Shown here piece after piece: positions 1,690 through 56,093 of a stretch of DNA of 64,000 nt. Where the stretch lies: contig OZ220480.1 in assembly GCA_965116025.1 (NCBI GenBank), positions 193,335 to 257,334 on the forward strand, read 5' to 3'. Every line of letters starts with the position of its first letter. Within the stretch, counting starts at the first letter, position 1. The position numbers and the translations under genes were made by a program. The notes below the pieces were generated by a model, which saw only the letters and a list, made by a program, of their open reading frames with translations, made no database searches and was not told the DNA's origin. Origin of the DNA: an uncultured candidatus Porisulfidus sp. GTDB taxonomy: Bacteria > Pseudomonadota > Gammaproteobacteria > Poriferisulfidales > Poriferisulfidaceae.

Positions 1690-1757
1690 CCTACAGTCTC
1701 GCGCGGATCAAGTGAGGAATTATAGCAAGTCGGGCGTGGTCGGGAGTGCCATTTCTA

Positions 1758-3527: not shown

Positions 3528-3549
3528 CCCGTTGGGTCATCCACGACAG

Positions 3550-4095: not shown

Positions 4096-4115
4096 GTCGT
4101 GGATGACCCAACGGG

Positions 4116-5947
4116 TCAGTCGAACCAGTGCACGATCCCCAGCGCGAACATCTCGATCTCCGCCCCCGGCGTCCCCAGGCCGGTCCCCGAGATGCCCTGC
4201 CCGTAGGTCCCGTTGTCGTCGTTGTTGACTTCCGAATACGTCAGCCGCAACTCGGTTCCCGCCGGCATCGTGTAGAACACCCCGACGTTCCAGGCGTCCG
4301 CCGCCGTCTCGTCCCAGTCCCCCATGCAGTAGTTGCACGACAGCTCCAGGTCGTCGGCGTCCATATAGGAGAAGCGGAAGTCCAGCGGGCCGCCGAACTT
4401 GATCTTGCCCGACACCATCCAGGCGTCCCGCTCGATCTTCACGTTGGAGCTCATGGTTTGCTTCAGCTTGGCGTCGGCGTATTCCGTCATCTTCTTCTCG
4501 TACTCCATCACCTTCTCGTTGTGCGGCTCCAGGGCGTACTCCCTCGCCTTCGCCACGTATTCCTTGTAGAAGTCCATGTCCGTCTTGTCATCCAGATACT
4601 TCGTGGTCGATGTCTTCAACTTGTTCAGGATCGTGGTGCTCAGCTTGGTAGTCAGGGCCGCTTTGTACGCCGTGTTCAATCCCCCAGTGGTGAACCTGTA
4701 GTAGCGATCGATCGCTGGGATGTTCTGATAATTACTCCAACTTTGATTATCGAAGTATTTTTTATAGGACCCCCCGTATCACTAGGACTTAAGTCGGTGG
4801 GCCATACGGCCAGACCGGCCATGTTGGTCCTCCATTTCCCGTTCTCGTCCGTCAGCAGCTCGACCGCGAGCCCCCCGGTCATCTGCGCCTCTATCAGCGG
4901 CTTCAGCTCCGCTTCGGTGGGCATCGTCGGCTTCGTCGGCATGTCCATGTCGGCGGGGGCCATGACCTTCATGTCGTAGTAGGTTTTCTCGAAATGGTTG
5001 ATGTTGGGATCGGTACCGCCGTACCCGAACGCCTTCATGGCCTTGTTGATGTCGGTCACGCCGTGGAACTCGTACTCCAAAGTCTCCCACATGGCCGACA
5101 GTTGAACGCTCATGCCGTCGCCCAGGTCCATGATGTAGCGCCCGGCCAGGCGGAAGCTCTCCGCGTCCGAGCTCTCCATCTCCCCGACCGAGACCGCCGT
5201 CCAGTCCTCGTGGTCCTGCCAGGTCGCCGCCAGCCACAGCGGGCCGTTCGTGTACGCCAGGCTGCTCGAGCGGATCACCGGGTCGATCTTCCCGCCGCCG
5301 GTCGGCGCCATCGTCTCGTCGCGGTTCCCGGCCGTCCAGGCGAAGCGGAACACGAAGCCGTTCCAGTTCGGCGACCAGTACTGGATGATGTTCTCCTGGC
5401 GCCGGTTGAAGCCGGTGTCGTAGCCGGCCCCGGCGTAGTTGAACTCCGCCCCGGAGAAGCCGGTCGCCGGCCCCGACGCCGACGCCTGCTGGTCGAAGTC
5501 GCCGGTGTTGTAGAAGATGGTGTTGGCTCCGACCGAGCCCATGATGCTGGTGTGCGAGTCGGCTCCGGCGTCGTAGAACGGGTCCACCCACTGGGCCACG
5601 CCCTCGTTGTACGGCAGCAGCCAGGTGGCGAACATGATCTCGCCGGCCATCGGGTGCGCCAGCCCGATCTTGGAGTTGCGGTTGCACCAGCCGGTGCCGC
5701 CGGCGAAGTGGTTGTAGTAGGTGAACTGCTCGCACTGCAGGTTCACCTTTATGTCGCTCATGCCGGTGTCCACGCTGGCCGAGAAGCCGATGTTCCCGGC
5801 GTTCGACTGGATGCGGTCGAAGCTGCGCCCGCCGTCGATGTCCACGAACTCCCACGAGTGGTTCTGCCACCCGTACAGGTTGATCGTCTCCGCCCGCGCC
5901 GGCAGCGCCAGCGCCGAAAGCCCCGCCGCCAATAGCGCCAATGGCAT
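4116..5947 (-). pseudogene. porin-like family copy 2 (N-form A, cassette type Y), frameshifted
   Basis: ATG at 5947 (MPLALLAAG...). The reading frame breaks near 4680-4800, giving two overlapping ORFs (4676..5947 and 4116..4679). Both halves are homologous to the intact copy 4. Low-complexity odd sequence sits at 4740-4800. Confidence 0.6.
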
Positions 5948-6171
5948 TAGAAATGGTATCGTAGGGCATCAGCAAATCGAAAAACTCTCCACGGAATATC
6001 TGGCCAAAACGTCGCTTCTCCCATATATTGTTCGGTGAAATTCCGCCTCCCAAACTCTCGATTTCCGTTCCCTAGATTCCGCATTGAATTGCGGCACCAT
6101 TTCCTTTGTGGGAAAATAAGACGCTATGGGACGGGATTATCAATGTTGGCAAGGAAACCGGGAGAGGGTTG

Positions 6172-7395: not shown

Positions 7396-7396
7396 C

Positions 7397-25438: not shown

Positions 25439-27268
25439 TTGGCCCGAGCACGGGATTCCGTAGCAATCTCATTTCTAATCCCATTGACGCTGCTGGCGGC
25501 GTCGCTGTCGGCGCTGTCGCTGTCGGCGCGGGCGGAGACGATCAACCTGTACGGGTGGCAGAACCACTCGTGGGAGTTCGTGGACATCGACGGCGGGCGC
25601 AGCTTCGACCGCATTCAGTCGAACGCCGGGAACATCGGCTTCTCGGCCAGCGTGGACACCGGCATGAGCGACATAAAGGTGAACCTGCAGTGCGAGCAGT
25701 TCACCTACTACAACCACTTCGCCGGCGGCACCGGCTGGTGCAACCGCAACTCCAAGATCGGGCTGGCGCATCCGATGGCCGGCGAGATCATGTTCGCCAC
25801 CTGGCTGCTGCCGTACAACGAGGGCGTGGCCCAATGGGTGGACCCGTTCTACGACGCCGGGGCCGACTCGCACACCAGCATCATGGGCTCGGTCGGGGCC
25901 AACACCATCTTCTACAACACCGGCGACTTCGACCAGCAGGCGTCGGCGTCCAATCCTGGCACTGGCTTCTCCGGCAACGAGTTCAACTACGCCGGGGGCG
26001 GCTACGACACCGGCTTCAACCGGCGCCAGGAGAACATCATCCAGTACTGGTCGCCGAACTGGAACGGCTTCGTGTTCCGCTTCGCCTGGACGGCCGGCAA
26101 TCGCGACGAGACCCACGCGCTCAAGGACGCCAAAGGTAATTACGCGGCCGGCCCCAAGATCGACCCGGTGATCCGCTCGAGCAGCCTGGCGTACACGAAC
26201 GGCCCGCTGTGGCTGGCGGCGACCTGGCAGGACCACGAGGACTGGACGGCGGTCTCGGTCGGGGAGATGGAGAGCTCGGACGCGGAGAGCTTCCGTCTGG
26301 CCGGGCGCTACATCATGGACCTGGGCGACGGCATGAGCGTTCAATTGTCCGCCATGTGGGAGACCTTGGAGTACGAGTTCCACGGCGTGACCACCATCGA
26401 TAAGGCCATGAAGGCGTTCGGGTATGGGAATTTCATGGATTCTTACGAGTTGAGCGTCACGGATGCGGAGATAATGAAGAAGAAGACCCAAGGGCTGGCG
26501 CTCGATATCTTGACGGATGAGAAGGGCATGCTGATTCCTATGGGGGACACGGCGCGGGGTTTATATGGGGAGCAGGTTAAAACCACTATGAGCCTGTACA
26601 CCGCATACATGGGTGAGATAGACACCGTAACCTCCACCAGCTTGAACTTGGTCGCTGAACGCAGAACTGTGGTCGACTGGAACGACTATTACAAAGAGGC
26701 GCCTGATAATCCTGTTAAAGTCAGCACTACCGCCATGCGAACCGGGTCCCAAAATGTCATGCTTTTCACGACCATGCTGAGCACGACTACGCTGAACGCG
26801 GCCAAAACGGCCGCGGAGGAGGCCAAAAAGAAGGATATGGATGATCGAACGGGCGAGGACAAATCGAAAATCAAGTTCTATGACGACCTGGTCTCGATGG
26901 CGAAATCCCGAGCCCGCGACGAGAAGAGCATGGGCGGGAACGTGAAGATCGAGCGAGACGCCTGGATGGTGTCGGGCAAGATCAAGTTCGGCGGCCCGCT
27001 GGACTTCCGCTTCTCCTACATGGACGCCGACGACCTGGAACTGTCGTGCAACTACTGCATGGGAGACTGGGACGAGACGGCGGCGGACGCCTGGAACGTC
27101 GGGGTGTTCTACACGATGCCGGCGGGGACCGAGCTGCGGCTGACGTATTCGGAAGTCAACAACGACGACAACGGGACCTACGGGCAGGGCATCTCGGGGA
27201 CTGGCTTGGGAGTGGCTGGCGCGGAGATCGAGATGTTCGCGCTGGGGATCGTGCACTGGTTCGACTGA
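25439..27268 (+). CDS. porin-like family copy 3 (N-form B, cassette type X)
   Basis: Near-identical framework to the other copies. There is no ATG, so the ORF track uses TTG at 25439 (MARARDSVAISFLIPLTLLAASLSALSLSARA then ETINLY). Its cassette is almost identical to copy 1. Confidence 0.7.
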   Translation: MARARDSVAISFLIPLTLLAASLSALSLSARAETINLYGWQNHSWEFVDIDGGRSFDRIQSNAGNIGFSASVDTGMSDIKVNLQCEQFTYYNHFAGGTGWCNRNSKIGLAHPMAGEIMFATWLLPYNEGVAQWVDPFYDAGADSHTSIMGSVGANTIFYNTGDFDQQASASNPGTGFSGNEFNYAGGGYDTGFNRRQENIIQYWSPNWNGFVFRFAWTAGNRDETHALKDAKGNYAAGPKIDPVIRSSSLAYTNGPLWLAATWQDHEDWTAVSVGEMESSDAESFRLAGRYIMDLGDGMSVQLSAMWETLEYEFHGVTTIDKAMKAFGYGNFMDSYELSVTDAEIMKKKTQGLALDILTDEKGMLIPMGDTARGLYGEQVKTTMSLYTAYMGEIDTVTSTSLNLVAERRTVVDWNDYYKEAPDNPVKVSTTAMRTGSQNVMLFTTMLSTTTLNAAKTAAEEAKKKDMDDRTGEDKSKIKFYDDLVSMAKSRARDEKSMGGNVKIERDAWMVSGKIKFGGPLDFRFSYMDADDLELSCNYCMGDWDETAADAWNVGVFYTMPAGTELRLTYSEVNNDDNGTYGQGISGTGLGVAGAEIEMFALGIVHWFD

Positions 27269-27287
27269 CCCTTCGTCATCCACGAAG

Positions 27288-27318
27288 CGAGCGGGCGCCC
27301 TCGGGCGCCCGCTTTCTT
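27288..27318 (+). terminator. rho-independent terminator of copy 3
   Basis: GCGGGCGCCC-tcg-GGCGCCCGC followed by TTTCTT. Confidence 0.7.
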
Positions 27319-27843
27319 GTGGGCTCAGGAATTCCTGACAGGTCCGCCACCAGGCGGGACCAAGACGATGGCCAGCCTCGAGACCGAGACGGACCCGCTT
27401 CGGACTACCCCCCGAATGCTTGGAGTGGCTCCACGGAAGCCGTGAGGGAAACTCCGGTTTCAGGCTTTCATCAAAGACTGTGCACCCGATATTCTTGAGA
27501 AAGGAGTTCCGGGGACCGATGGACTTGTGAAAGCCTTGGTTCACCCACCGCGCGAGCGAGACGCGTCGCGCGAAGTCCACTCGATCAAGGGCGATGGCCC
27601 TCTCGCTCTTTTCCTCCCCGAGGCGCGCGCTGACCCGAACCCTCCGGTTTCCCGCCGCCTCGCCTGGATTCCAGCTATACCGAGAATTCTCGGTCCTCCA
27701 TCACTTTGTCGTGGATTGGGTCATCCCGATCTCGCCCGCCGCGAGCGAATGGCCTTCCGAGCGTGTGGCGGGCGCGGCGAAGCCAGGTCTCGCGCCGCCG
27801 GCGCTGGCCCGACTCCCGATCTGGCCGCGAAACGCCGGATCCA

Positions 27844-27876
27844 AAGAAAGCGGGCGCCCGAAGGCGCCCGCTCGCT
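27844..27876 (-). terminator. rho-independent terminator of copy 4
   Basis: Mirror GC hairpin plus T-tract on the minus strand. Confidence 0.7.
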
Positions 27877-27894
27877 GTCGTGAATGACGAAGGG

Positions 27895-29830
27895 TCAGTC
27901 GAACCAGTGCACGATCCCCAGCGCGAACATCTCGATCTCCGCCCCCGGCGTCCCCAGGCCAGTCCCCGAGATGCCCTGCCCGTAGGTCCCGTTGTCGTCG
28001 TTGTTGACTTCCGAATACGTCAGCCGCAGCTCGGTCCCCGCCGGCATCGTGTAGAACACCCCGACGTTCCAGGCGTCCGCCGCCGTCTCGTCCCAGTCTC
28101 CCATGCAGTAGTTGCATGACAGCTCCAGGTCGTCGGCGTCCATGTAGGAGAAGCGGAAGTCCAGCGGGCCGCCGAACTTGATCTTGCCCGACACCATCCA
28201 GGCGTCCCGCTCGATCTTCACGCTCGACCCCATGGTCTGCTCCAGCTTGGCGGCAGCATATTTTTCCTTGCCCTCCTCGTATGCCGTCATGGCATCGTCG
28301 TAGGCTTTCTTAGCCTCGTTGTACTTCTCGTCATATGGCCTCATGGCCTCCTCCTTGACCTTCGCCACGTATTCCTTGTACCAGTCAGCGCCTGTTTTGT
28401 CGCCCGAATATTTCGTGGTCGATGTCTTTAAAGTATTCAGTGTCGTGGAGCTCAGTTTGGTGGTAACGAGCGTTCGCAGCGCCTGATCCGTTCCTATAGT
28501 GTTAAGTCTATAGTATTGAACCAGCTTTCTCCGATGTACGAGGCCAGAACCCCATTGCGCTAGCTCTGTGTGGAAGCTGCCTTGGAGAGTACTTAATTCC
28601 TTGGGCACCGCGATATTACTGAGGCTTGATGTCGCGCTCTTGCTATCCACTGGAATGGTCCGCCAGTACCCGCTCTCGTCAAGCAACATCTCCATCGCAA
28701 GCCCTTGGGTCATCTGCGCGTCGATCTCGGCTTGGGTGGCCATCCCTCGTTCAGGCTTCGTCGTGGTCGGCTTCGTCGGCATGTCCATGTCGGCGGGGGC
28801 CATGACCTTCATGTCGTAGTAGGTCTTCTCGAAATGGTTGATGTTGGGATCGGTGCCGCCGTACCCGAACGCCTTCATGGCCTTGTTAATGTCGGTCACG
28901 CCGTGGAACTCGTACTCCAAAGTCTCCCACATGGCCGACAATTGAACGCTCATGCCGTCGCCCAGGTCCATGATGTAGCGCCCGGCCAGACGGAAGCTCT
29001 CCGCGTCCGAGCTCTCCATCTCCCCGACCGAGACCGCCGTCCAGTCCTCGTGGTCCTGCCAGGTCGCCGCCAGCCACAGCGGGCCGTTCGTGTACGCCAG
29101 GCTGCTCGAGCGGATCACCGGGTCGATCTTGGGGCCGGCCGCGTACTTGCCCTCGGCGTTCTTGAGCGCGTGGGTCTCGTCGCGATTGCCGGCCGTCCAG
29201 GCGAAGCGGAACACGAAGCCGTTCCAGTTCGGCGACCAGTACTGGATGATGTTCTCCTGGCGCCGGTTGAAGCCGGTGTCGTAGCCGCCCCCGGCGTAGT
29301 TGAACTCGTTGCCGGAGAAGCCAGTGCCAGGATTGGACGCCGACGCCTGCTGGTCGAAGTCGCCGGTGTTGTAGAAGATGGTGTTGGCCCCGACCGAGCC
29401 CATGATGCTGGTGTGCGAGTCGGCCCCGGCGTCGTAGAACGGGTCCACCCACTGGGCCACGCCCTCGTTGTACGGCAGCAGCCAGGTGGCGAACATGATC
29501 TCGCCGGCCATCGGGTGCGCCAGCCCGATCTTGGAGTTGCGGTTGCACCAGCCGGTGCCGCCGGCGAAGTGGTTGTAGTAGGTGAACTGCTCGCACTGCA
29601 GGTTCACCTTTATGTCGCTCATGCCGGTGTCCACGCTGGCCGAGAAGCCGATGTTCCCGGCGTTCGACTGGATGCGGTCGAAGCTGCGCCCGCCGTCGAT
29701 GTCCACGAACTCCCACGAGTGGTTCTGCCACCCGTACAGGTTGATCGTCTCCGCCCGCGCCGACAGCGACAGCGCCGACAGCGACGCCGCCAGCAGCGTC
29801 AATGGGATTAGAAATGGTATCTCCTCGAAA
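27895..29830 (-). CDS. porin-like family copy 4 (N-form B, cassette type Y')
   Basis: Full-length framework with an intact cassette homologous to the two halves of copy 2. There is no in-frame ATG near the signal peptide (...EEIPFLIPLTLLAAS). The ORF-track extension to 29973 reads into the IS4 junction. Confidence 0.7.
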
Positions 29831-29975
29831 TCCCAATCCCACCGAGAACCATGATGACCATGCGCCCCAAGACTCCGCCCAAGAGACCGTGGAAACCGAA
29901 ATCCACCGATCCCCGGAGCATGGGAAACTGAGACGAAACCATGGCTGATTCTGAAACTTCGGGATGACTCCAACT

Positions 29976-43953: not shown

Positions 43954-44061
43954 TGGAGAATCCTCCCTGAAAAGATAGCGACTAGTTTACCAAATCCCTA
44001 GCCACGCGAGTTTCTGGGTTTCTCGATTTGCTGATGCTCTACGATACCATTTCTAATCCCA

Positions 44062-45948
44062 TTGACGCTGCTGGCGGCGTCGCTGTCGGCGCTGTCGCTG
44101 TCGGCGCGGGCGGAGACGATCAACCTGTACGGGTGGCAGAACCACTCGTGGGAGTTCGTGAACATCGACGGCGGGCGCAGCTTCGACCGCATCCAGTCGA
44201 ACGCCGGGAACATCGGCTTCTCGGCCAGCGTGGACACCGGCATGAGCGATATCAAGGTGAACCTGCAGTGCGAGCAGTTCACCTACTACAACCACTTCGC
44301 CGGCGGCACCGGCTGGTGCAACCGCAACTCCAAGATCGGGCTGGCGCATCCGATGGCCGGCGAGATCATGTTCGCCACCTGGCTGCTGCCGTACAACGAG
44401 GGCGTGGCCCAATGGGTGGACCCGTTCTACGACGCCGGGGCCGACTCGCACACCAGCATCATGGGCTCGGTCGGGGCCAACACCATCTTCTACAACACCG
44501 GCGACTTCGACCAGCAGGCGTCGGCGTCGGGGCCGGCGACCGGCTTCTCCGGGGCGGAGTTCAACTACGCCGGGGCCGGCTACGACACCGGCTTCAACCG
44601 GCGCCAGGAGAACATCATCCAGTACTGGTCGCCGAACTGGAACGGCTTCGTGTTCCGCTTCGCCTGGACGGCCGGCAACCGCGACGAGACGATGGCGCCG
44701 ACCGGCGGCGGGAAGATCGACCCGGTGATCCGCTCGAGCAGCCTGGCGTACACGAACGGCCCATTGTGGCTGGCGGCGACCTGGCAGGACCACGAGGACT
44801 GGACGGCGGTCTCGGTCGGGGAGATGGAGAGCTCGGACGCGGAGAGCTTCCGTCTGGCCGGGCGCTACATCATGGACCTGGGCGATGGTATGAGCGTGCA
44901 GCTGTCGGCCATGTGGGAGACTTTGGAGTACGAGTTCCACGGCGTGACCACGGTCGAGAAGGCGATGGCGGCGTTCGGCTACGGGAACTTCGCGTCCTCC
45001 TACGCCGAGCCGATCTACGCCATGGATGCGGCCACCAAGAAGGTGGACGAGACGGTCATGGACCCCACCCAGGCCGAGATCGACGCGCAGAAAACTCGTG
45101 GAGCGGCGCTCGAGTTCCTCACGGACGAGAAGGGGCTCCTAAGGTCGATGGAGGTTAAAGAAGGGGACAGTGGCAACCCGAGAGGCACATCCTTAAAAGG
45201 AATGTTCGTATCCAAGCCTTTATTCAATGATCTCACCACGAACGATAAAGGAATGCTGATCGGCTGGACGGATCAGACCGATCTGAGCATGCCTGATGCC
45301 ACCTCAGTTCATGGCGCGTACGCGGCCTTCCTCACCACTGACGCCGCCAAAACGGCTATTCGAGCGGGAAACCTGAAAGAGGTGATGCGCAAGCAGTCGT
45401 TCTACACCACCCGGCTGACCTCCACCGAGCTCACGGCTCTGAAGCTACCCGATAAAGCTGTCTCAGGAGCGGATACCGGCGCGGTGGTTGGCGACAAATG
45501 GCTCTACGACAACATCGTGGCGCATGCCAAGACCGAGGCCAAGAAGATGAAGGAAACGGCCAAGGAGGCGGAGATGAAGGCCGTGGAGACGGCCCGGATG
45601 GCCAAGAGCATGGGGTCGAACGTCAAGATCGAGCGGGACGCCTGGATGGTGTCGGGCAAGATCAAGTTCGGCGGCCCGCTGGACTTCCGCTTCTCCTACA
45701 TGGACGCCGACGACCTGGAGCTGTCGTGCAACTACTGCATGGGGGACTGGGACGAGACGGCGGCGGACGCCTGGAACGTCGGGGTGTTCTACACGATGCC
45801 GGCGGGGACCGAGCTTAGGCTGACGTATTCGGAAGTCAACAACGACGACAACGGGACCTACGGGCAGGGCATCTCGGGGACCGGCCTGGGGACGCCGGGG
45901 GCGGAAATCGAGATGTTCGCGCTGGGGATCGTGCACTGGTTCGACTGA
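44062..45948 (+). CDS. porin-like family copy 5 (N-form A, cassette type Z)
   Basis: Conserved frameworks. An in-frame TGA sits immediately upstream of ...IPFLIPLTLLAAS, so the only available start is TTG at 44062. Promoter-like box TTTCTCGATTTGCTGATGCTCTACGATACC upstream. Confidence 0.7.
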   Translation: MTLLAASLSALSLSARAETINLYGWQNHSWEFVNIDGGRSFDRIQSNAGNIGFSASVDTGMSDIKVNLQCEQFTYYNHFAGGTGWCNRNSKIGLAHPMAGEIMFATWLLPYNEGVAQWVDPFYDAGADSHTSIMGSVGANTIFYNTGDFDQQASASGPATGFSGAEFNYAGAGYDTGFNRRQENIIQYWSPNWNGFVFRFAWTAGNRDETMAPTGGGKIDPVIRSSSLAYTNGPLWLAATWQDHEDWTAVSVGEMESSDAESFRLAGRYIMDLGDGMSVQLSAMWETLEYEFHGVTTVEKAMAAFGYGNFASSYAEPIYAMDAATKKVDETVMDPTQAEIDAQKTRGAALEFLTDEKGLLRSMEVKEGDSGNPRGTSLKGMFVSKPLFNDLTTNDKGMLIGWTDQTDLSMPDATSVHGAYAAFLTTDAAKTAIRAGNLKEVMRKQSFYTTRLTSTELTALKLPDKAVSGADTGAVVGDKWLYDNIVAHAKTEAKKMKETAKEAEMKAVETARMAKSMGSNVKIERDAWMVSGKIKFGGPLDFRFSYMDADDLELSCNYCMGDWDETAADAWNVGVFYTMPAGTELRLTYSEVNNDDNGTYGQGISGTGLGTPGAEIEMFALGIVHWFD

Positions 45949-45969
45949 CCGGTTGGGTCACCCACGATA

Positions 45970-46002
45970 GCGAGCGGGCGCCTTCGGGCGCCCGCTTTCT
46001 TT
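45970..46002 (+). terminator. rho-independent terminator of copy 5
   Basis: AGCGGGCGCC-ttcg-GGCGCCCGCT followed by TTCTTT. Confidence 0.7.
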
Positions 46003-46487: not shown

Positions 46488-46520
46488 AAAAGAAAGCGGG
46501 CGCCCGAAGGCGCCCGCTCT
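46488..46520 (-). terminator. rho-independent terminator of copy 6
   Basis: Mirror GC hairpin plus T-tract on the minus strand. Confidence 0.7.
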
Positions 46521-46541
46521 CGTCGTGAATGATCCAACGGA

Positions 46542-48449
46542 TCAGTCGAACCAGTGCACGATCCCCAGCGCGAACATCTCGATCTCCGCGCCAGCCACCC
46601 CCAGCCCGGTCCCCGAGATGCCCTGCCCGTAGGTCCCGTTGTCGTCGTTGTTGACTTCCGAATACGTCAGCCGCAGCTCGGTCCCCGCCGGCATCGTGTA
46701 GAACACCCCCACGTTCCAGGCGTCCGCCGCCGTCTCGTCCCAGTCTCCCATGCAGTAGTTGCATGACAGCTCCAGGTCGTCGGCGTCCATGTAGGAGAAG
46801 CGGAAGTCCAGCGGGCCGCCGAACTTGATCTTGCCCGACACCATCCAGGCGTCCCGCTCGATCTTCACGTTCGACCCCATGCTCTTGGCCATCCGGGCCG
46901 TCTCCACGGCCTTCATCTCCGCCTCCTTGGCCGTTTCCTTCATCTTCTTGGCCTCGGCCGTCGCATGCTTCACGATGTTGTCGTAGAGCCATTTGTCGCC
47001 AGTCACATCACCGGTATCCGCTCCTGAGACAACTTTATTGGGTAGCTTCAGGGCCGTGAGCTCCGTGGAGGTCAGCCGGGTGGTGTAGAACGACTGCTTG
47101 CGCATCACCTCTTTCAGATTGCCCGCTCGAATAGCCGTTTTCGCGGCGTCAGTGGTGAGAAAAGCTCCGTACTCGCCGTGAACCGTGGACGTACTAAGAT
47201 TGTTGAAGTTTCTCGTCGTCCAACCGGTCAGCATTCCTTTATCGTTCGTGATCAGCGTATTGAATAAAGCGCCAGTTACGGCTCTTGTGATGGATGTACC
47301 GGCATTAGTACTCCCAGAAGGCGTCATTAATCCTTTCTCGTCCGTCAGAAACTCAAGCGCCGCTCCACGAGTTTTCTGCGCGTCGATCTCGGCCTGGGTG
47401 GGGTCCATGACCGTCTCGTCCACCTTCTTGGTGGCCATGTCCATGGCGTAGGCCTGCTCGGCGTAGGAGGACGCGAAGTTCCCGTAGCCGAACGCCGCCA
47501 TCGCCTTCTCGACCGTGGTCACGCCGTGGAACTCGTACTCCAAAGTCTCCCACATGGCGGACAATTGAACGCTCATGCCGTCGCCCAGGTCCATGATGTA
47601 GCGCCCGGCCAGACGGAAGCTCTCCGCGTCCGAGCTCTCCATCTCCCCGACCGAGACCGCCGTCCAGTCCTCGTGGTCCTGCCAGGTCGCCGCCAGCCAC
47701 AGCGGGCCGTTCGTGTACGCCAGGCTGCTCGAGCGGATCACCGGGTCGATCTTGGGGCCGGCCGCGTAATTACCTTTGGCGTCCTTGAGCGCGTGGGTCT
47801 CGTCGCGATTGCCGGCCGTCCAGGCGAAGCGGAACACGAAGCCGTTCCAGTTCGGCGACCAGTACTGGATGATGTTCTCCTGGCGCCGGTTGAAGCCGGT
47901 GTCGTAGCCGCCCCCGGCGTAGTTGAACTCGTTGCCGGAGAAGCCAGTGCCAGGATTGGACGCCGACGCCTGCTGGTCGAAGTCGCCGGTGTTGTAGAAG
48001 ATGGTGTTGGCCCCGACCGAGCCCATGATGCTGGTGTGCGAGTCGGCCCCGGCGTCGTAGAACGGGTCCACCCATTGGGCCACGCCCTCGTTGTACGGCA
48101 GCAGCCAGGTGGCGAACATGATCTCGCCGGCCATCGGATGCGCCAGCCCGATCTTGGAGTTGCGGTTGCACCAGCCGGTGCCGCCGGCGAAGTGGTTGTA
48201 GTAGGTGAACTGCTCGCACTGCAGGTTCACCTTTATGTCGCTCATGCCGGTGTCCACGCTGGCCGAGAAGCCGATGTTCCCGGCGTTCGACTGAATGCGG
48301 TCGAAGCTGCGCCCGCCGTCGATGTCCACGAACTCCCACGAGTGGTTCTGCCACCCGTACAGGTTGATCGTCTCCGCCCGCGCCGACAGCGACAGCGCCG
48401 ACAGCGACGCCGCCAGCAGCGTCAATGGGATTAGAAATGGTTTTTTCAT
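46542..48449 (-). CDS. porin-like family copy 6 (N-form B, cassette type Z), best-supported expressed copy
   Basis: Canonical ATG with AGGAG 8 bp upstream, and a classical signal peptide MKKPFLIPLTLLAASLSALSLSARA. Confidence 0.85.
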   Translation of the reverse strand: MKKPFLIPLTLLAASLSALSLSARAETINLYGWQNHSWEFVDIDGGRSFDRIQSNAGNIGFSASVDTGMSDIKVNLQCEQFTYYNHFAGGTGWCNRNSKIGLAHPMAGEIMFATWLLPYNEGVAQWVDPFYDAGADSHTSIMGSVGANTIFYNTGDFDQQASASNPGTGFSGNEFNYAGGGYDTGFNRRQENIIQYWSPNWNGFVFRFAWTAGNRDETHALKDAKGNYAAGPKIDPVIRSSSLAYTNGPLWLAATWQDHEDWTAVSVGEMESSDAESFRLAGRYIMDLGDGMSVQLSAMWETLEYEFHGVTTVEKAMAAFGYGNFASSYAEQAYAMDMATKKVDETVMDPTQAEIDAQKTRGAALEFLTDEKGLMTPSGSTNAGTSITRAVTGALFNTLITNDKGMLTGWTTRNFNNLSTSTVHGEYGAFLTTDAAKTAIRAGNLKEVMRKQSFYTTRLTSTELTALKLPNKVVSGADTGDVTGDKWLYDNIVKHATAEAKKMKETAKEAEMKAVETARMAKSMGSNVKIERDAWMVSGKIKFGGPLDFRFSYMDADDLELSCNYCMGDWDETAADAWNVGVFYTMPAGTELRLTYSEVNNDDNGTYGQGISGTGLGVAGAEIEMFALGIVHWFD

Positions 48450-49181
48450 TTTTTGACTCCTGAAAAATTAGTCTCCGCAAGGCAATCACTCCTCACGAAC
48501 AATGTGGTGAAATTACCACATTTCGGCGTGGATTATATAGCCTAGAGATGATGTCAATCGGCCATGCTGTTGTTTTTTAGAAACAAGTTTGGTTTAGGTA
48601 AGGTGGATGTCGATATCAGCATCTTTCTAATTTAAAAACAACAGGATTTCTTTACCTACTGCATTGCCTCGATAGGCGTATAGATATCCGAAACTGATAA
48701 TGTTTTCTAGCTTTAGGAGATTTTCTGGAGTCATAGCGAGATGATCACTTCCCATGGATATGGTAGTAAAACGACCACATTTCTGCACGGTTATAGAACC
48801 TCTGGACACAGGCAAACGTCATGCCTATTGTTAGATTTTAGTGACAGGAGCGAATGAGAAAACCAGAAGCTGGTTTCAGTTTTCTATTGTTCTAAAAACA
48901 ACAACATATCTTTCCACCAAAATTTCTATCGGATAGGATATAGTGAACGTATCAAGTTCGCCGTTATCAACTCGGCAACTGATTAGCGAATTGGCCTACA
49001 AAAATGAACGGAGCGGCGACGAAAATGCGTTCAAGCCAATTCGATTTTGCAACTGGCTTGGCACGGGTTTTCATGGTCCAAATATAGTAATGAATCCAAT
49101 TATCAATAGTGACCGTCGCTTGCTCCCGCCTGAAATCTCGTTATCAGAGCTCGGAAGAGCGACGCTCAAACTTAATCCTTA

Positions 49182-50357
49182 ATGAAGGAGAAAATAAAAA
49201 TGACAGCAAGAGACTTTGAGATGGTTGAGGAATCTGGCCGTTCGGTCCCTTCCAAAACGTACGCTAGCTACGTCGGACTCGATGTCCACAAGGACAGCAT
49301 CGCCGTCGCCGTCGCTCATGCGGGCCGAGGAGCTCCAGAATCCTGGGGTACCATACCGAACACGAAGAAAGCGATCGCAAAACTCGTGGATCGGCTGTAT
49401 GCGAAGAACGAGACTTTCCTGATTTGCTACGAGGCTGGCCCATGCGGATACACCCTGTATCAGAACCTGATTGCCATGGGGGTAGATTGCCGGGTCGTGG
49501 ATCCTCCAAGAAACGAAAAGATCAAGACGGACCAGCGGGACGCGTTACGTTTGGCACGGCTTTTGCGCGCTGGAGAACTGGTAGAGATTTGGGTGCCGGA
49601 TCAAGAGCAAGAAGCGATTCGCGACCTGTGCCGTTGTCGAGCCGATTTCATGGTGCAGCAACGGAAACTGCGCCAGCAATTCAACGCTTTCTTGCTACGC
49701 CATGGACACCATTGGCCAACAAACTGGAAACGCTGGACGCAAAAACATCTCGATTGGTTGGAAAAGCTCGATTTCCCGTATATTTTCATGAGCGAGGTTC
49801 GAGATGAATATATCTCGGCCGTCCGCCTGTCCGCGTCAAGAATTCTTGATCTCGACAAAAAAATCGACAAGGCTGTGCAGGCTTGGTCGTGGGCGCCAGT
49901 GGTCAACAGCCTGAAAGCGTTGCGTGGGTTCGACCAGTTATCCGCGGTTATGTTGCTATCCGAATTGGGTGATATCAGTCGTTTCGAATCTCCTAGTCAA
50001 CTTATGGGCTACTTGGGACTGGTTCCGTGCGTGTATAGCTCTGGGGCGTATCACCGCACCGGGGGCGCCACGCGAGCGGGAAACCGTCATGCCCGGCAAG
50101 TATTGATCGATTCGGCTTGGTGCTACCGGTTCCCCGCTCGTCAAACCGCCTACATGAGCCGCAAATCGGAAGGCGCATCCGCATACGCCCAAACTATTTC
50201 GTGGAAAGCGCAAAAACGATTGTGCGGACAATATCGGAAGTTGACCACGGCGGGAAAGAGCCAGAAAGTTGTTTGCGTGGCGATTGCGAGAGAATTGTCG
50301 GGGTTTGTCTGGGATATCGTCTGTCACGAAAAAGCCCGCCTAAGCCGAGTGAGATAG
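49182..50357 (+). CDS. IS110-family transposase
   Basis: YVGLDVHKDSIAVAV...ICYEAGPCGYTLY, with a C-terminal IS116/IS110/IS902-type domain. Embedded in an AT-rich segment whose IS boundaries are undetermined. Confidence 0.85.
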   Translation: MKEKIKMTARDFEMVEESGRSVPSKTYASYVGLDVHKDSIAVAVAHAGRGAPESWGTIPNTKKAIAKLVDRLYAKNETFLICYEAGPCGYTLYQNLIAMGVDCRVVDPPRNEKIKTDQRDALRLARLLRAGELVEIWVPDQEQEAIRDLCRCRADFMVQQRKLRQQFNAFLLRHGHHWPTNWKRWTQKHLDWLEKLDFPYIFMSEVRDEYISAVRLSASRILDLDKKIDKAVQAWSWAPVVNSLKALRGFDQLSAVMLLSELGDISRFESPSQLMGYLGLVPCVYSSGAYHRTGGATRAGNRHARQVLIDSAWCYRFPARQTAYMSRKSEGASAYAQTISWKAQKRLCGQYRKLTTAGKSQKVVCVAIARELSGFVWDIVCHEKARLSRVR

Positions 50358-50608
50358 GAGGTATATGCCGAGACTTGTCGCAAAAATCAGGGTGCTTCAG
50401 TCTGTCGGAGAATCCTTGTAATTTCTATATCGGTGCGAGACCGTGTATGCTTGATTCGCATATTTGAACTCGTGATCCATGCTATTAGACAAAGGTTCAG
50501 CTCCGCGACTTCTACAGGTCACATCGGTAACCAACCCGAGTTTCATCCATGGCCTGCTATCGCAAATGATTGGAGTATCCTGGTTTTTGCGCCGCGTCTA
50601 GGGGGCAG

Positions 50609-51507
50609 CTACTTGATGCTCTCGAGCCAATGTCCTTCGGAGACAATCCTGATTGGAAATTCTTGGGTACGCAACGTCACAGCCTTCTCAATTTTTCGGC
50701 CATACGCGGACTGTATCCAAGTACCCTCAGCATAGGATCCGATCACCAAATAATCCGTTGCTCTTGTGGGGGATTTTTGGCAAATTCCCTGCCGTGTTTG
50801 GATTTCACGCTCGCACTGTATGCGGCTACCATAGAAAAACTTTCCAGTCAGGCAAAATTTGCGACCCGCGAATACGACTTCCGGGGGTGGGTCATCCAGC
50901 CATAGCGTTGTCGCATTCAGGCACTCCCCAACTTCCGTCTTCCCGCCGACCAAGCCGCTCAGCAGTTGTAGCAATTGCATAGTTCTATCGGTATCTCCCG
51001 CGTTCTGCCCCCAAAAAGAGTTCAGCTTCTCTCGGAACGCCTTGGCCACTGGATTGTTGAATGTCTCTTCATGATCTATCAGCCAAGTACGCAACGCCCG
51101 TGTCTCGCTTTCAGCAATTTTTCCATCCGCGATCAAGCCGCGGCATAGCCCCAGCAATTCGGGGATGTAACCACCGTCCAATTCGTTGATTGCAATTCGA
51201 CCGTGACCAAATGATTCCTCTCCACCCGAATAATCATCCAAAAGAATATGAACTAGTTGCGTCAGTTCCTCGCTTTCACTGGTATCCAGCGTCTCGTCCT
51301 TGAGCATTTGTCCGACGCGCGTCCGCAGAATTTCCACGAGAGAATTCCCTGTCTCTTGATCGATCAGCCAAGCATAAAGCGATTCCACTTCGCTTTGGAC
51401 GATTTTTCCGTCCGCGATCAGGCCCTTGCATAGGCCTATTAGTTCTGAACTTTGGCGTCCATTCAAACGACCACGATGGTACTTCAAGAAATTCGATTGA
51501 TCAGACA
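50609..51507 (-). CDS. protein with two TerB-like repeats and a C-terminal BRCT domain
   Basis: Repeats LIGLCKGLIADGKIVQSEVESLYAWLID and LLGLCRGLIADGKIAESETRALRTWLID. C-terminal region FAGRKFCLTGKFFYGSRIQCEREIQTRQGICQKSPTRATDYLVIGSYAEGTWIQSAYGRKIEKAVTLRTQEF is BRCT-like. Start MSDQ at 51507. The ORF-track extension to 51811 is antisense read-through into copy 7. Confidence 0.6.
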
Positions 51508-51590
51508 TTAGGAAGAGCGACGTTTTGGCCAGATATTCCGTGGAGAGTTTTTCGATTTGCTGATGCCCTACGATACCATTTCTAATCCCA

Positions 51591-53486
51591 TTGACGCTGC
51601 TGGCGGCGTCGCTGTCGGCGCTGTCGCTGTCGGCGCGGGCGGAGACGATCAACCTGTACGGGTGGCAGAACCACTCGTGGGAGTTCGTGGACATCGACGG
51701 CGGGCGCAGCTTCGACCGCATCCAGTCGAACGCCGGGAACATCGGCTTCTCGGCCAGCGTGGACACCGGCATGAGCGACATAAAGGTGAACCTGCAGTGC
51801 GAGCAGTTCACCTACTACAACCACTTCGCCGGCGGCACCGGCTGGTGCAACCGCAACTCCAAGATCGGGCTGGCGCACCCGATGGCCGGCGAGATCATGT
51901 TCGCCACCTGGCTGCTGCCGTACAACGAGGGCGTGGCCCAGTGGGTGGACCCGTTCTACGACGCCGGGGCCGACTCGCACACCAGCATCATGGGCTCGGT
52001 CGGCGCGAACACCATCTTCTACAACACCGGCGACTTCGACCAGCAGGCGTCGGCGTCGGGGCCGGCGACCGGCTTCTCCGGGGCGGAGTTCAACTACGCC
52101 GGGGCCGGCTACGACACCGGCTTCAACCGGCGCCAGGAGAACATCATCCAGTACTGGTCGCCGAACTGGAACGGCTTCGTGTTCCGCTTCGCCTGGACGG
52201 CCGGCAACCGCGACGAGACGATGGCGCCGACCGGCGGCGGGAAGATCGACCCGGTGATCCGCTCGAGCAGCCTGGCGTACACGAACGGCCCGCTGTGGCT
52301 GGCGGCGACCTGGCAGGACCACGAGGACTGGACGGCGGTCTCGGTCGGGGAGATGGAGAGCTCGGACGCGGAGAGCTTCCGCCTGGCCGGGCGCTACATC
52401 ATGGACCTGGGCGACGGCATGAGCGTTCAATTGTCGGCCATGTGGGAGACTTTGGAGTACGAGTTCCACGGCGTGACCACGGTCGAGAAGGCGATGGCGG
52501 CGTTCGGCTACGGGAACTTCGCGTCCTCCTACGCCGAGCCGATCTACGCCATGGACATGGCCACCAAGAAGGTGGACGAGACGGTCATGGACCCCACCCA
52601 GGCCGAGATCGACGCCCAGATGACCCGCGGGCTCGCCATCCAGCTGCTCACGGATGACCGAGGACGGGAGAAAGAGGACGATGATGGCAACAGCTTTTTG
52701 GCTACCGCTCTAGGCCAGGAAATAGTGACGACGGCCGCTCCCAACAAGCCCGCCGAGTGGACGTTCAAAGAAATAGATGCCAGTGCTGACCTGCCAACGA
52801 CTACGGTCATAGGAGAGTACCGGCAGTATCTTAGTACCGCCCTCAAGAAAATCGCCGGTCCGGGCGGACATCAAACCTCGGGGCTCATCTACAGCGTGAA
52901 TCCCGTGAAGCATCGCCAGTCGCAGCCGTTCTGGACCACCCGGCTGACCTCCACGGAGCTCACGGTCCTGAAGCTGGGCTACGCGACGACCATGATCGCC
53001 TCATCCGGGGAGAATCAGAAAGTGTTTGGCGACCCTGCGCTGTACACGGCGATCATGAACGCGGCGAAGGAAAATGCCAAAACGAAAAAGCAGATGGACA
53101 AGGAGGCGGAGATGAAGAAGGTGGAGGACGCCCGGATGGCCAAGAGCATGGGCTCGAACGTGAAGATCGAGCGGGACGCCTGGATGGTGTCGGGCAAGAT
53201 CAAGTTCGGCGGCCCGCTGGACTTCCGCTTCTCCTACATGGACGCCGACGACCTGGAGCTGTCATGCAACTACTGCATGGGAGACTGGGACGAGACGGCG
53301 GCGGACGCCTGGAACGTCGGGGTGTTCTACACGATGCCGGCGGGGACCGAGCTGCGGCTGACGTATTCGGAGGTCAACAACGACGACAACGGGACCTACG
53401 GGCAGGGCATCTCGGGGACCGGGCTGGGGACGGCTGGCGCGGAGATCGAGATGTTCGCGCTGGGGATCGTGCACTGGTTCGACTGA
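51591..53486 (+). CDS. porin-like family copy 7 (N-form A, cassette type Z)
   Basis: Same 5' box as copies 2 and 5. No ATG (TTG at 51591). Intact frameworks. Confidence 0.7.
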   Translation: MTLLAASLSALSLSARAETINLYGWQNHSWEFVDIDGGRSFDRIQSNAGNIGFSASVDTGMSDIKVNLQCEQFTYYNHFAGGTGWCNRNSKIGLAHPMAGEIMFATWLLPYNEGVAQWVDPFYDAGADSHTSIMGSVGANTIFYNTGDFDQQASASGPATGFSGAEFNYAGAGYDTGFNRRQENIIQYWSPNWNGFVFRFAWTAGNRDETMAPTGGGKIDPVIRSSSLAYTNGPLWLAATWQDHEDWTAVSVGEMESSDAESFRLAGRYIMDLGDGMSVQLSAMWETLEYEFHGVTTVEKAMAAFGYGNFASSYAEPIYAMDMATKKVDETVMDPTQAEIDAQMTRGLAIQLLTDDRGREKEDDDGNSFLATALGQEIVTTAAPNKPAEWTFKEIDASADLPTTTVIGEYRQYLSTALKKIAGPGGHQTSGLIYSVNPVKHRQSQPFWTTRLTSTELTVLKLGYATTMIASSGENQKVFGDPALYTAIMNAAKENAKTKKQMDKEAEMKKVEDARMAKSMGSNVKIERDAWMVSGKIKFGGPLDFRFSYMDADDLELSCNYCMGDWDETAADAWNVGVFYTMPAGTELRLTYSEVNNDDNGTYGQGISGTGLGTAGAEIEMFALGIVHWFD

Positions 53487-53508
53487 CCCGTTGGGTCACT
53501 CACGGCAA

Positions 53509-55998: not shown

Positions 55999-56093
55999 TG
56001 GGATTAGAAATGGTTTTTGAATCCCAGTTGTGGCAAAATTAGTCTAGAGTTTCCCGTTAGACGGGTTTCCGAATAAACTGACTGGTCAAAATC

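What the first reader, a model, noticed from the sequence alone, without database searches (positions are those of the whole stretch)
25439..29973. Second convergent pair is a near-duplicate of the first but carries the alternative N-terminal allele (reticulate pattern)
Two framework alleles exist.
- Form A: signal peptide ...LSALALPARA or the same 5' box as copies 5 and 7, a loop SGPATGFSGAEFNYAGAGY, and a loop DETMAPTGGGKIDP. Found in copies 1, 2, 5 and 7.
- Form B: ...LSALSLSARA, SNPGTGFSGNEFNYAGGGY and DETHALKDAKGNYAAGPKIDP. Found in copies 3, 4, 6 and 8.

Three cassette types exist.
- X: copies 1 and 3 (...TTIDKAMKAFGYGNFMDSYELSVTDAEIMKKK...).
- Y: copies 2 and 4 (...TDINKAMKAFGYGGTDPNINHFEKTYYDMKVMAPADMDMPTKPT...).
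- Z: copies 5-8 (...TTVEKAMAAFGYGNFASSYAEPIYAMD...).

Every combination A+X, B+X, A+Y, B+Y, A+Z and B+Z occurs. Flanking DNA is almost SNP-free; for example 1801-1860 and 25521-25580 are identical. Independent assortment of alleles and cassettes, together with near-identical flanks, indicates ongoing gene conversion or segmental recombination among the copies.
Basis: seen in the sequence. Interest (0 to 1): 0.8.

Follow-up and report, generated by a model that had tools for sequence, protein, structure and literature searches.

The report
Variable porin genes with RNA-guided switch
A sponge-symbiont bacterium keeps at least eight near-identical porin genes that differ only in their surface loops, and it appears to change which one is expressed using a domesticated, RNA-guided "jumping-gene" recombinase.

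Summary
The mosaic is real but described too neatly. The window (a Candidatus Porisulfidus-like sponge symbiont) has eight OmpF-type porin paralogs in four tail-to-tail pairs.

- **Framework versus loops.** Barrel-coding DNA is 99-100% identical between copies. The predicted surface loops L3, L4, L6 (a 185-230 aa "cassette") and L8 differ.
- **What holds.** The A/B loop alleles are as stated, and the X cassette is shared by c1 and c3 (98.9% aa). A/B, cassette and 3' polymorphisms are mutually incompatible (PHI-like p<0.0005; at least 13 events in the framework), so recombination among copies is shown.
- **What does not hold.** Y (c2/c4) shares only its first ~45 aa, and Z is heterogeneous (52-76%). 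The quoted "identical" 60-mers differ by 1 nt. c2 is frameshifted.
Only c6 has an SD and an ATG(MKK) start. All other copies, including both genes of the finding, begin exactly at ATTTCTAAT with unrelated upstream DNA.
- **Conserved module.** Beside c6 lies a single-copy IS110-family recombinase, a structured RNA and a BRCT protein, conserved across the lineage. One internal loop of the RNA matches both strands of ATTTCTAAT.
- **Inference.** RNA-guided inversions move the expression flank between copies (Piv-like or sapA-like), while gene conversion makes the mosaics.

No inversion was observed directly.

The parts
25471..27268 (+). Porin copy c3 (in the finding). Form B loops and cassette X. 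It begins at ATTTCTAAT and has no SD or canonical ATG; the only candidate start is a TTG at 25439 without an SD.
27269..27894 (.). Spacer between the convergent genes c3 and c4. A GC-rich hairpin plus T-run follows each stop codon. It is homologous to the spacers of the other three pairs and is itself mosaic.
27895..29815 (-). Porin copy c4 (in the finding). Form B loops (variant KNAEGKY). Its cassette shares only the first ~45 aa with c2. It begins at ATTTCTAAT and has no usable start codon next to the site.
1751..3527 (+). Porin copy c1. Form A loops, cassette X, signal-peptide allele LSALALPARA.
4116..5954 (-). Porin copy c2. Form A loops. The cassette start resembles that of c4. A frameshift lies near 4775-4790.
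44049..45948 (+). Porin copy c5. Form A loops, Z-type cassette (76% aa to c6). A 31-nt '5' box' lies upstream at 44018-44048.
46542..48449 (-). Porin copy c6. This is the only copy with a canonical start (ATG 48449-48447, MKKPFLIPL...). Form B loops, Z-type cassette.
48450..48557 (-). Expression flank of c6: TTGACA at 48557-48552, a 5'UTR hairpin plus U-run at 48499-48474, and an SD (AGGAG) at 48461-48457. It is homologous to the flank conserved in ten other loci.
49200..50357 (+). IS110-family DEDD recombinase (385 aa). It is single copy and is conserved in the same position in other Porisulfidus-like assemblies.
50374..50596 (+). Structured noncoding RNA, a homolog of bridge/seek RNAs. Loop 1 carries AATTTCTA (50420-50427, same sense as the site) and ATTAGA (50484-50489, antisense to it).
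50615..51508 (-). BRCT-domain protein. It is conserved between the RNA and the next porin copy in ten other loci from public assemblies.
51516..51577 (+). 62-nt '5' box' between the BRCT start and the c7 site. An identical copy lies at c2 (5955-6016), although the gene side differs immediately after the site.
51578..53486 (+). Porin copy c7. Form A loops, Z-type cassette. It lies head-to-head with c6 across the 3.1-kb module.
54085..56011 (-). Porin copy c8. Form B loops, Z-type cassette. The upstream flank lacks an ATG (ATTCAAAAACC).

Best explanation
The finding is one pair (c3/c4) of an eight-copy family in this window. At least ten copies exist in the genome. The genes encode 16-stranded OmpF-type porins in a Candidatus Porisulfidus-like sponge symbiont.

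Shown:
- The barrel-coding framework is almost identical in all copies.
- All variation sits in predicted surface loops: the L3/L4 alleles A and B, a 185-230 aa helical insert in L6 (the 'cassette'), and L8.
- These segments assort independently, so homologous recombination among copies has built the mosaic.
- Only c6 carries an SD and an ATG-AAA-AAA start, behind a flank conserved across the lineage that contains a promoter-like TTGACA box.
- The other seven copies start exactly at the 9-nt site ATTTCTAAT, with unrelated upstream DNA.
- Between the head-to-head copies c6 and c7 lies a module conserved across the lineage: a single-copy IS110-family DEDD recombinase, a structured RNA homologous to the bridge/seek RNA of related insertion sequences, and a BRCT protein.
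- The two strands of one internal loop of that RNA match the two strands of ATTT-CT-AAT and overlap at the core.

Inferred:
- The recombinase, guided by this RNA, recombines pairs of ATTTCTAAT sites.
- In this window adjacent sites alternate in orientation, so the products are inversions. The four single-step inversions are the 3.1-kb module, the 4.4-kb c5/c6 pair, and 23-kb or 47-kb segments reaching c3 or c1.
- Each inversion places a different, otherwise silent porin copy behind the single expression flank.
- Gene conversion or crossovers in the shared framework then create new loop and cassette combinations.
- The result is programmed variation of a surface-exposed porin domain. Its likely role is escape from phage or host recognition in the sponge.
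For: Porin identity:
- PF13609 matches at E about 1e-17.
- The AlphaFold model has 16 strands, and Foldseek finds OmpF, Omp32, PorB and ChiP at E 1e-9 to 6e-13.
- The variable segments map to L3, L4, L6 and L8.

Mosaic and recent homogenisation.

Single expression flank:
- Only c6 has AGGAG-N7-ATGAAAAAA.
- In each public assembly sampled, one copy was seen with this conserved flank. The others lack an ATG or have an in-frame stop.
- ATTTCTAAT occurs 8 times, only at the eight 5' boundaries, against 0.12 expected.

Module:
- Recombinase: NF033542 'IS110 family RNA-guided transposase', 229 bits against a cut-off of 140, plus PF01548 and PF02371.
- The same recombinase-RNA-BRCT order between divergent porin copies is seen in 10 loci and in 2 JGI contigs. 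An 11th locus (L025) has the recombinase between divergent copies but no BRCT hit.
- Each cluster of this recombinase clade sits on 1-3 contigs.

RNA:
- 97.4% of cells are paired, against 34-43% with slid partners. Nine pairs show compensatory changes, and 0 of 500 shuffles reach that number or the observed covariation score.
- Adding two insertion-sequence (IS) relatives gives 19 compensatory pairs.
- G-U pairs place the RNA on the recombinase strand.

Guide match:
- In the L003-type RNA the matches are CATTTCTA plus ATGCAATTAGA (8 + 11 nt; 0 of 20000 shuffles). The nine other aligned RNAs share the same loop core, GGCATTTCTAC / GCAATTAGACA.
- In the window the match is 7 + 6 nt (339 of 20000 shuffles).
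- In bona fide IS relatives (56-58% aa identity, with subterminal inverted repeats) the homologous loop strands match their insertion flanks at 21 of 33 positions (P = 3e-6).

Published rules fit:
- The two loop strands pair with opposite DNA strands and overlap at the core. Elements of the IS1111 group encode the RNA downstream of the recombinase (PMC11208160).
- Reprogramming an IS1111-type element required changing both the seekRNA target matches and the target-derived sequence flanking the donor IS (PMC11187229).
Against: - No inversion product or alternative junction was seen. The window's own genome is not in the searchable collections, and the metagenome scan returned only module contigs that end in the repeats.
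- The second loop of the RNA, which is the donor-binding loop in the IS relatives, varies between genomes. It has no recognisable core or target, so how two sites would be synapsed is unknown.
- In the window the guide match is weaker than in relatives: 7 + 6 nt, or 7 of 11 programmable positions.
- In the window the TTGACA box is only 14 nt from TATAAT, against 17 nt in relatives. The promoter scan did not call it.
- Some silent copies could use internal ATG or TTG starts: c1 and c2 MPLALL..., c3 TTG at 25439.
- In some relatives, copies lie in the same orientation, where recombination would delete DNA rather than invert it.
- Sharp breakpoints at the site are also expected from gene conversion that stops at the end of homology.
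Confidence: 0.6

Rival explanations
1. This is an ordinary multigene family under concerted evolution. All eight porins are expressed from their own promoters and non-canonical starts. Gene conversion homogenises the barrel while selection diversifies the loops. The IS110-family element is an immobilised passenger with no role.
For: - Recombination and homogenisation are shown.
- Seven of eight ORFs are intact.
- Internal ATG or TTG codons exist in the signal-peptide region.
- The donor-type loop of the RNA looks decayed.
Against: - It does not explain why homology ends at exactly ATTTCTAAT in copies with unrelated flanks in many genomes.
- It does not explain why one SD+ATG flank is conserved across the lineage while other copies carry in-frame stops there.
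- It does not explain why a single-copy recombinase, RNA and BRCT module keeps its position between two divergent copies in ten other loci at 71-84% aa identity.
- It does not explain why the RNA loop that binds targets in IS relatives is invariant in nine aligned RNAs and matches that site.
Confidence: 0.22
2. The A/A and B/B pattern of pairs 1 and 2 comes from reciprocal RecA-type crossovers between inverted copies, not from gene conversion. One inversion between c2(-) and c3(+), with the crossover between loop L4 and the cassette, would convert two (A+X, B+Y) pairs into (A+X, A+Y) and (B+X, B+Y). This is compatible with the main explanation.
For: - c2 and c3 are inverted repeats 19.5 kb apart, with about 640 nt at 95% identity (I17).
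- Within-pair N-terminal arms are 98-99% identical over 940-980 nt (I4 and I6).
- The allele distribution fits a single event.
Against: - It is not distinguishable from conversion with one genome.
- At least 13 events are needed in the framework, so one inversion cannot explain everything.
- The orientation of the carAB-to-truB block relative to an outgroup was not tested.
Confidence: 0.3
3. The mosaic is an assembly artefact: a chimeric consensus of strains, or collapsed and mis-joined repeats.
For: - The source is a metagenome-assembled genome.
- Repeats of about 1 kb at 98-100% identity are hard to assemble.
- c2 has a frameshift next to a homopolymer.
Against: - The proteins sit on one 2.02-Mb contig.
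- Each copy has unique flanks and a unique cassette.
- The same architecture recurs in independent assemblies from other samples.
- The alleles differ by blocks of 13-29 nt, not by scattered errors.
Confidence: 0.03

Closest known systems
Piv invertase and the tfpQ/tfpI pilin inversion of Moraxella lacunata and M. bovis
   Same: - A DEDD recombinase related to IS110-family transposases, kept as a host gene next to the locus it acts on.
- Recombination sites lie at the 5' part of alternative surface-protein coding sequences.
- Alternative gene bodies lie tail-to-tail on an invertible segment, with a constant promoter and start outside it.
- The G..P....SG motif is present (GLVPCVYSSG).

   Basis: PMC11187229, and my own knowledge for the Moraxella layout.
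   Different: - The target is a porin, not a pilin.
- There are eight or more full-length copies spread over more than 55 kb among housekeeping genes, instead of two gene segments.
- The recombinase is 385 aa, larger than the 315-330 aa Piv/IS621 group, and has its noncoding RNA downstream.
- A guide-like RNA and a BRCT partner are present; I know of neither for Piv.
- Inversion was not observed here.
Bridge RNA / seekRNA-guided IS110 and IS1111 insertion sequences (IS621, ISEc11)
   Same: - The recombinase family is the same (NF033542).
- A structured RNA lies next to the gene.
- The two strands of an internal loop match opposite strands of the target and overlap at a CT/AG core.
- The RNA scaffold is shared with real IS relatives.

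   Different: - There is one copy per genome, in a fixed syntenic position.
- There are no recognisable subterminal inverted repeats or element ends. The part of the right end that lies beyond the RNA in IS relatives has no room here: only 18 nt separate the RNA from the BRCT stop codon.
- The donor-type loop is degenerate.
- The 'target' is present as 8 inverted and direct copies at host gene starts, and none of them is interrupted by the element.
Campylobacter fetus sapA S-layer variation (promoter inversion among homologs)
   Same: - Several full-length homologs share a conserved 5' region but have no promoter of their own.
- One promoter sits on a segment flanked by oppositely oriented homologs.
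- Nested inversions can bring any homolog to the promoter.

   Basis: my own knowledge, compared.
   Different: - sapA inversion depends on RecA-type recombination within about 600-bp conserved regions.
- Here a dedicated site-specific recombinase and a 9-nt boundary site are present.
- The copies here also share a conserved 3' region.
Gene-conversion antigenic variation with silent donors (Anaplasma msp2/p44, Neisseria pilE/pilS, Treponema tprK)
   Same: - A surface protein has conserved flanks around a hypervariable central region.
- There are one expression site and many non-expressed donors.
- Variants are mosaic.

   Basis: my own knowledge.
   Different: - The donors here are complete genes that lack only the first three codons and the SD.
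- They are arranged in convergent pairs.
- A recombinase with a guide-like RNA is attached to the expression site.

Membership tests
Gram-negative general porin (Porin_4, OmpF-like) | Sequence match to the family profile above the curated cut-off | tested here: met
   PF13609 scores 65-67 bits against a cut-off of 27 for c3, c4, c6 and c8.
Gram-negative general porin (Porin_4, OmpF-like) | 16-stranded beta-barrel fold | tested here: met
   The model has 16 strands (pLDDT 65, pTM 0.61). Foldseek finds VhChiP, Omp32, OmpF and PorB at E 6e-13 to 1e-9 with TM(target) 0.55-0.67.
Gram-negative general porin (Porin_4, OmpF-like) | Sec signal peptide with a charged N-region | tested here: inconclusive
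   It is present in c6 (MKKPFLIPLTLLAASLSALSLSARA). The other seven copies lack the MKK codons. No signal-peptide predictor was available.
IS110/IS1111-family RNA-guided recombinase | DEDD (RuvC-like) domain plus a Tnp_20 domain with a conserved SG motif | tested here: met
   - PF01548 and PF02371 match.
- NF033542 scores 229 bits against a cut-off of 140, over its full length.
- GLDVHKD, KTDxRDA and YSSG are invariant in 12 orthologs.
- A weak profile hit to IS621 covers the SG region.
IS110/IS1111-family RNA-guided recombinase | Adjacent structured RNA with an internal loop whose two strands match opposite strands of the target and overlap at the core | tested here: met
   The structure is supported by covariation. 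The loop strands are CATTTCTA and ATTAGA against the site ATTTCTAAT. The homologous loop matches the insertion flanks in IS relatives.
IS110/IS1111-family RNA-guided recombinase | Mobile element: defined ends or subterminal repeats, a donor loop matching its own ends, and several copies or variable locations | tested here: not met
   - It is single copy and syntenic.
- No significant match to the subterminal inverted repeat was found.
- Loop 2 is variable and lacks the AG core seen in IS relatives.
- It should therefore not be filed as an active IS.
Piv-type site-specific inversion system | Recombination sites in inverted orientation at the 5' ends of alternative surface-protein genes, with one constant expression flank | tested here: met
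   The eight sites alternate + and -. There is one SD+ATG flank.
Piv-type site-specific inversion system | Both orientations of the invertible DNA are observed, and inversion depends on the recombinase | not testable with these tools
   No reads or second assembly of this organism were available.
Diversity-generating retroelement | Reverse transcriptase with a template/variable repeat pair | tested here: not met
   No RT domain was found in any of the ~40 ORFs scanned. Variation is in blocks and indels, not adenine-specific substitutions.

The most novel reading that the evidence does not exclude
This would be a natural, host-domesticated bridge-RNA-guided recombinase. An immobilised IS110-family enzyme keeps only its target-binding guide, programmed to a 9-nt site at the start of every porin paralog. 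It uses that guide to invert chromosomal segments, so that one of many silent porin genes is placed behind a single promoter and start codon. This would be a heritable, RNA-programmed antigenic-variation switch conserved across a lineage of uncultured sponge symbionts.
Probability: 0.5. Interest if true: 0.9.

Novelty: new variant of a known kind. Interest (0 to 1): 0.82.

Why it matters
Bridge and seek RNAs were described in 2024 as the targeting device of selfish IS110/IS1111 elements. Four full-text searches of the held library found no paper describing a host-domesticated one.

This locus offers a concrete, testable case. The candidate guide, the 9-nt target, the set of substrates and a candidate accessory protein (BRCT) can all be read from the sequence.

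- It links the long-known Piv type of pilin inversion to RNA guidance.
- It suggests how an obligate sponge symbiont with a 2-Mb genome can vary a dominant surface protein, for example against phage or host phagocytes.
- It explains why short-read assemblies of these symbionts break at porin genes.
- Independently of the switch, the family is a clear example of concerted evolution of a barrel scaffold with old, reshuffled surface cassettes.

Tried and rejected
- **Bridge RNA upstream of the recombinase (IS110-type position).** Only a small conserved hairpin was found, with no consensus structure.
- **Rfam scan of 43.9-56.3 kb.** No match at E<=1.
- **PDB sequence search.** Neither the recombinase nor the BRCT protein gave a hit. 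Only a weak profile hit to IS621 was found.
- **A target for RNA loop 2.** k-mer matches in each locus were at chance level and not at homologous places. A 13-nt inverted match to the BRCT leader in L026, L017 and L008 is absent from the window.
- **My first reading of silent flanks as out-of-frame ATGs in a poly-A tract (slipped-strand switch).** The stop codons are TAA or TAG, and there is no ATG except in L006. Rejected.
- **Similarity of the c8 flank to the c6 expression flank.** Only about 11 nt are shared, below the alignment threshold.
- **Remnant of the subterminal inverted repeat in the window.** Not significant.
- **Looking up the window's own proteins to get the rest of the genome.** They are not on record.
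- **Metagenome scan for alternative junctions.** It returned only two module contigs that end inside the repeats, plus one chance hit.
- **A breakpoint exactly at the site (L003 vs L071: flank 100/100, gene side 93/110).** Real, but it does not separate site-specific exchange from conversion that stops at the end of homology.

Full report
**1. What is in the window**

The 64-kb window is chromosomal. It carries carAB, greA, rimP-nusA-infB-truB, grpE-dnaK-dnaJ, recN and argG. Scattered among these genes are eight paralogs of one gene, arranged as four convergent pairs.

The closest relatives are loci of metagenome-assembled 'Candidatus Porisulfidus' and related Gammaproteobacteria, and the named isolates include sponge samples. 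The window's own 2.02-Mb contig holds at least two further copies, P0004 and P0006. That contig is not in the searchable collections.

**2. The protein**

All copies match Pfam Porin_4. An AlphaFold model of c3 (pLDDT 65, pTM 0.61) has 16 strands. It resembles solved general porins: VhChiP, Omp32, OmpF and PorB, at Foldseek E 6e-13 to 1e-9.

I applied the standard porin topology, in which the β1-β2, β3-β4 and following connections are external. This is established knowledge for OmpF-type porins. Under that topology every variable segment falls in a surface loop:

| Variable segment | Loop |
|---|---|
| The 'cassette', a 185-230 aa mostly helical insert | L6 |
| The TP/VA/TA polymorphism | L8 |

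Strands and periplasmic turns are invariant.

**3. Checking the observation**

The A/B alleles are as described, and cassette X is shared by c1 and c3 (98.9% aa). Three statements are too strong:

- The two 60-mers quoted as identical differ at one base.
- 'Y' is not a single cassette. c2 and c4 share only the first ~100 nt and then diverge (318 differing columns). c2 is also frameshifted near a G6 run.
- 'Z' covers cassettes that are only 52-76% identical.

The reticulate signal itself is solid. Multi-nucleotide partitions are mutually incompatible. A PHI-like statistic is far below all 2000 permutations. The four-gamete bound is at least 13 events in the framework alone.

Homogenisation must be recent. 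c3, c6 and c8 differ at 2 of 900 framework nucleotides, while their cassettes are about 30% identical. The framework is only 88-92% identical (aa) to the best foreign copy.

Discrete L4 alleles and mixed combinations are seen throughout the family in other genomes.

**4.

Homology between copies starts abruptly at ATTTCTAAT. This 9-mer occurs eight times in the window, only at the eight gene starts, against 0.12 expected.

Only c6 has AGGAG-N7-ATG-AAA-AAA-CC in front of it, which gives MKKPFLIPL.... The other seven, including both genes of the finding, have unrelated upstream DNA and no canonical start. No promoter-like site was called upstream of c3 or c4.

The same split holds in other assemblies:

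- One copy carries a strongly conserved flank (TTGACA ... 5'UTR hairpin ... TTTTTAGGAGTCCTAAAAAATGAAAAAACC).
- The rest have other flanks, often with an in-frame stop where the ATG should be.
- Gene callers consequently gave them truncated 'MALAAAPFAAQA' starts.

**5. The conserved module**

c6 and c7 lie head-to-head, 3.1 kb apart. Between them are three elements:

- a 385-aa IS110-family DEDD recombinase (PF01548 and PF02371; NF033542, 229 bits);
- a ~220-nt noncoding stretch;
- a BRCT-domain protein.

The same three elements, in the same order and between two divergent porin copies, are found in ten loci from public assemblies and in two JGI contigs. An eleventh locus (L025) has the recombinase between divergent copies but no BRCT hit. 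Identities to the query are 71-84% aa for the recombinase and 63-95% for BRCT. Each cluster of this recombinase clade sits on 1-3 contigs. More distant relatives (56-65%) look like ordinary multi-copy insertion sequences on short contigs.

**6. The RNA**

The noncoding stretch is more conserved than its neighbours and folds into a long closing stem with two sub-domains.

- On ten sequences, 97.4% of cells pair, against 34-43% when partners are slid. Nine pairs show compensatory changes, and 0 of 500 shuffles reach that number or the observed covariation score.
- Many G-U pairs place the RNA on the recombinase strand.
- With two bona fide IS relatives added, the scaffold is kept and 19 pairs show compensatory change.

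The first internal loop carries, on its 5' strand, CATTTCTA (window: AATTTCTA). On its 3' strand it carries ATGCAATTAGA (window: ATTAGA). These are sense and antisense matches to ATTT-CT-AAT that overlap at the core.

This is the published signature of bridge and seek RNAs:

- The two loop strands pair with opposite DNA strands and both include the core.
- Elements of the IS1111 group carry the RNA downstream of the gene (PMC11208160; PMC11187229).

In the IS relatives, which do have subterminal inverted repeats and defined ends, the homologous loop strands match the flanks of three insertions at 21 of 33 positions (P = 3e-6). Their second loop contains the element's right end.

In the Porisulfidus-type RNAs the first loop is invariant in nine aligned RNAs, but the second loop varies and has lost the core. 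In addition, only 18 nt separate the RNA from the BRCT stop codon, so there is no room for the distal right end seen in the relatives. I read this as an immobilised element that has kept its target guide.

**7. Proposed mechanism**

Shown:

- the porin family and its mosaic;
- the single expression flank;
- the shared 9-nt boundary;
- the conserved recombinase, RNA and BRCT module;
- the guide-to-site complementarity.

Inferred:

- The recombinase, guided by the RNA, recombines pairs of sites.
- The eight sites alternate + and -, so the E site (c6, -) can recombine by inversion with c7 (3.1 kb, flipping the module), c5 (4.4 kb, flipping the pair), c3 (23 kb) or c1 (47 kb).
- Each event puts another copy behind the promoter, SD and ATG. 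Further inversions would be needed to reach the remaining copies.
One crossover between c2 and c3 would be enough for the A/A and B/B pattern of pairs 1 and 2.

Reprogramming an IS1111-type element required changing both the seekRNA target matches and the target-derived sequence flanking the donor IS (PMC11187229). This makes site-by-site recombination with a single guide loop plausible, but it is not shown.

**8. Weak points**

- No inversion product was seen.
- The role of loop 2 is unknown.
- In the window the guide match is only 7 + 6 nt (339 of 20000 shuffles reach it).
- In the window the TTGACA box is 14 nt from TATAAT, against 17 nt in relatives. The scan did not call a promoter.
- Some silent copies might use internal starts.
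- Some relatives have copies in the same orientation.
- Breakpoints at the site are also expected from conversion that ends at the homology boundary.

**9. Comparison and novelty**

The closest known system is the Piv invertase of Moraxella, an IS110-family relative that inverts pilin gene segments (PMC11187229). The layout also recalls Campylobacter fetus sapA promoter inversion, and gene-conversion systems with silent donors.

It differs in four ways: the target (a porin), the number and spread of full-length copies, the identifiable guide-like RNA, and the BRCT partner.

Four full-text searches found no description of this locus or of a domesticated bridge-RNA system. I class it as a new variant of a known kind.

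**Verdict**

- The locus is considerably more interesting than the mosaic alone suggests.

Noticed in passing
window 4770-4790 (c2): A frameshift inside the c2 cassette lies next to a G6 run and an A6 run. It is either a real pseudogene or a homopolymer error in the assembly.
   Followed up: partly
window 5955-6016, 44018-44048, 51516-51577: A 62-nt box is identical at c2 and c7, and 31 nt of it is present at c5, immediately upstream of the site. At c7 it is the leader of the BRCT gene. c2 and c7 differ at 9 of the first 45 nt right after the site, so a breakpoint coincides with ATTTCTAAT. The box contains ACGTTTTGGCCAG, a weak and non-significant resemblance to the subterminal repeat of the IS relatives.
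   Followed up: partly
window 48474-48499 (- strand): A terminator-like hairpin plus U-run lies inside the 5'UTR of the expressed copy, just before the SD. It is conserved in the expression flank of ten other loci and could be an attenuator or a stabiliser.
   Followed up: no
window 3528-4115, 27269-27894, 45949-46541, 53487-54084: The ~600-nt spacers between convergent genes are homologous in all four pairs. Each is bounded by the same GC-rich hairpin after each stop codon, and each is itself mosaic (sp1 resembles sp3 and sp2 resembles sp4 in the first 120 nt, with other groupings further on). No gene or Rfam family was found in sp3 or sp4; sp1 and sp2 were not scanned against Rfam.
   Followed up: partly
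window 30068-31309 (+) and 31474-33033 (-): An IS4/IS5-type DDE transposase (DDE_Tnp_1 plus DUF4372) lies directly upstream of c4. Next to it is a TraD/TrwB-like type IV coupling protein ORF, between the porin pair and dapB.
   Followed up: no
window 6106-8014 (+) and 23331-25010 (-): An AAA_21 (AbiEii-like) ATPase with a DUF4276 partner lies next to c2. A NERD plus UvrD-like helicase protein lies next to c3. These are possible defence genes flanking the porin pairs.
   Followed up: no
outside the window (P0004, P0006; same 2.02-Mb contig): There are two more porin copies in the genome. P0004 also starts MKKPFLIPL, so there is a second expression-type start. Only one recombinase of this clade from this 2.02-Mb contig appeared among the 120 listed hits (P0121).
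   Followed up: partly
L059/L064 and L071 (the same ~13-14 kb inter-site segment); L070 (6.1 kb): In some relatives, 3.6-10 kb of extra DNA lies between the recombinase and the expression flank. Short-read contigs end exactly inside the porin repeats on both sides.
   Followed up: no
L024 (OZ251520.1): A related lineage has shorter porins (443-475 aa, MKKTSLIV...). Every copy has its own ATG, the ATTTCTAAT site is absent, and no recombinase lies within 4 kb. It serves as a natural contrast.
   Followed up: partly
L026 3918, L017 2598, L008 3867: A 10-13-nt stretch of the 3' stem strand of the RNA (GATGGTCTGCTGT) is repeated, inverted, in the leader of the BRCT gene. It is not present in the window and remains unexplained.
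   Followed up: partly
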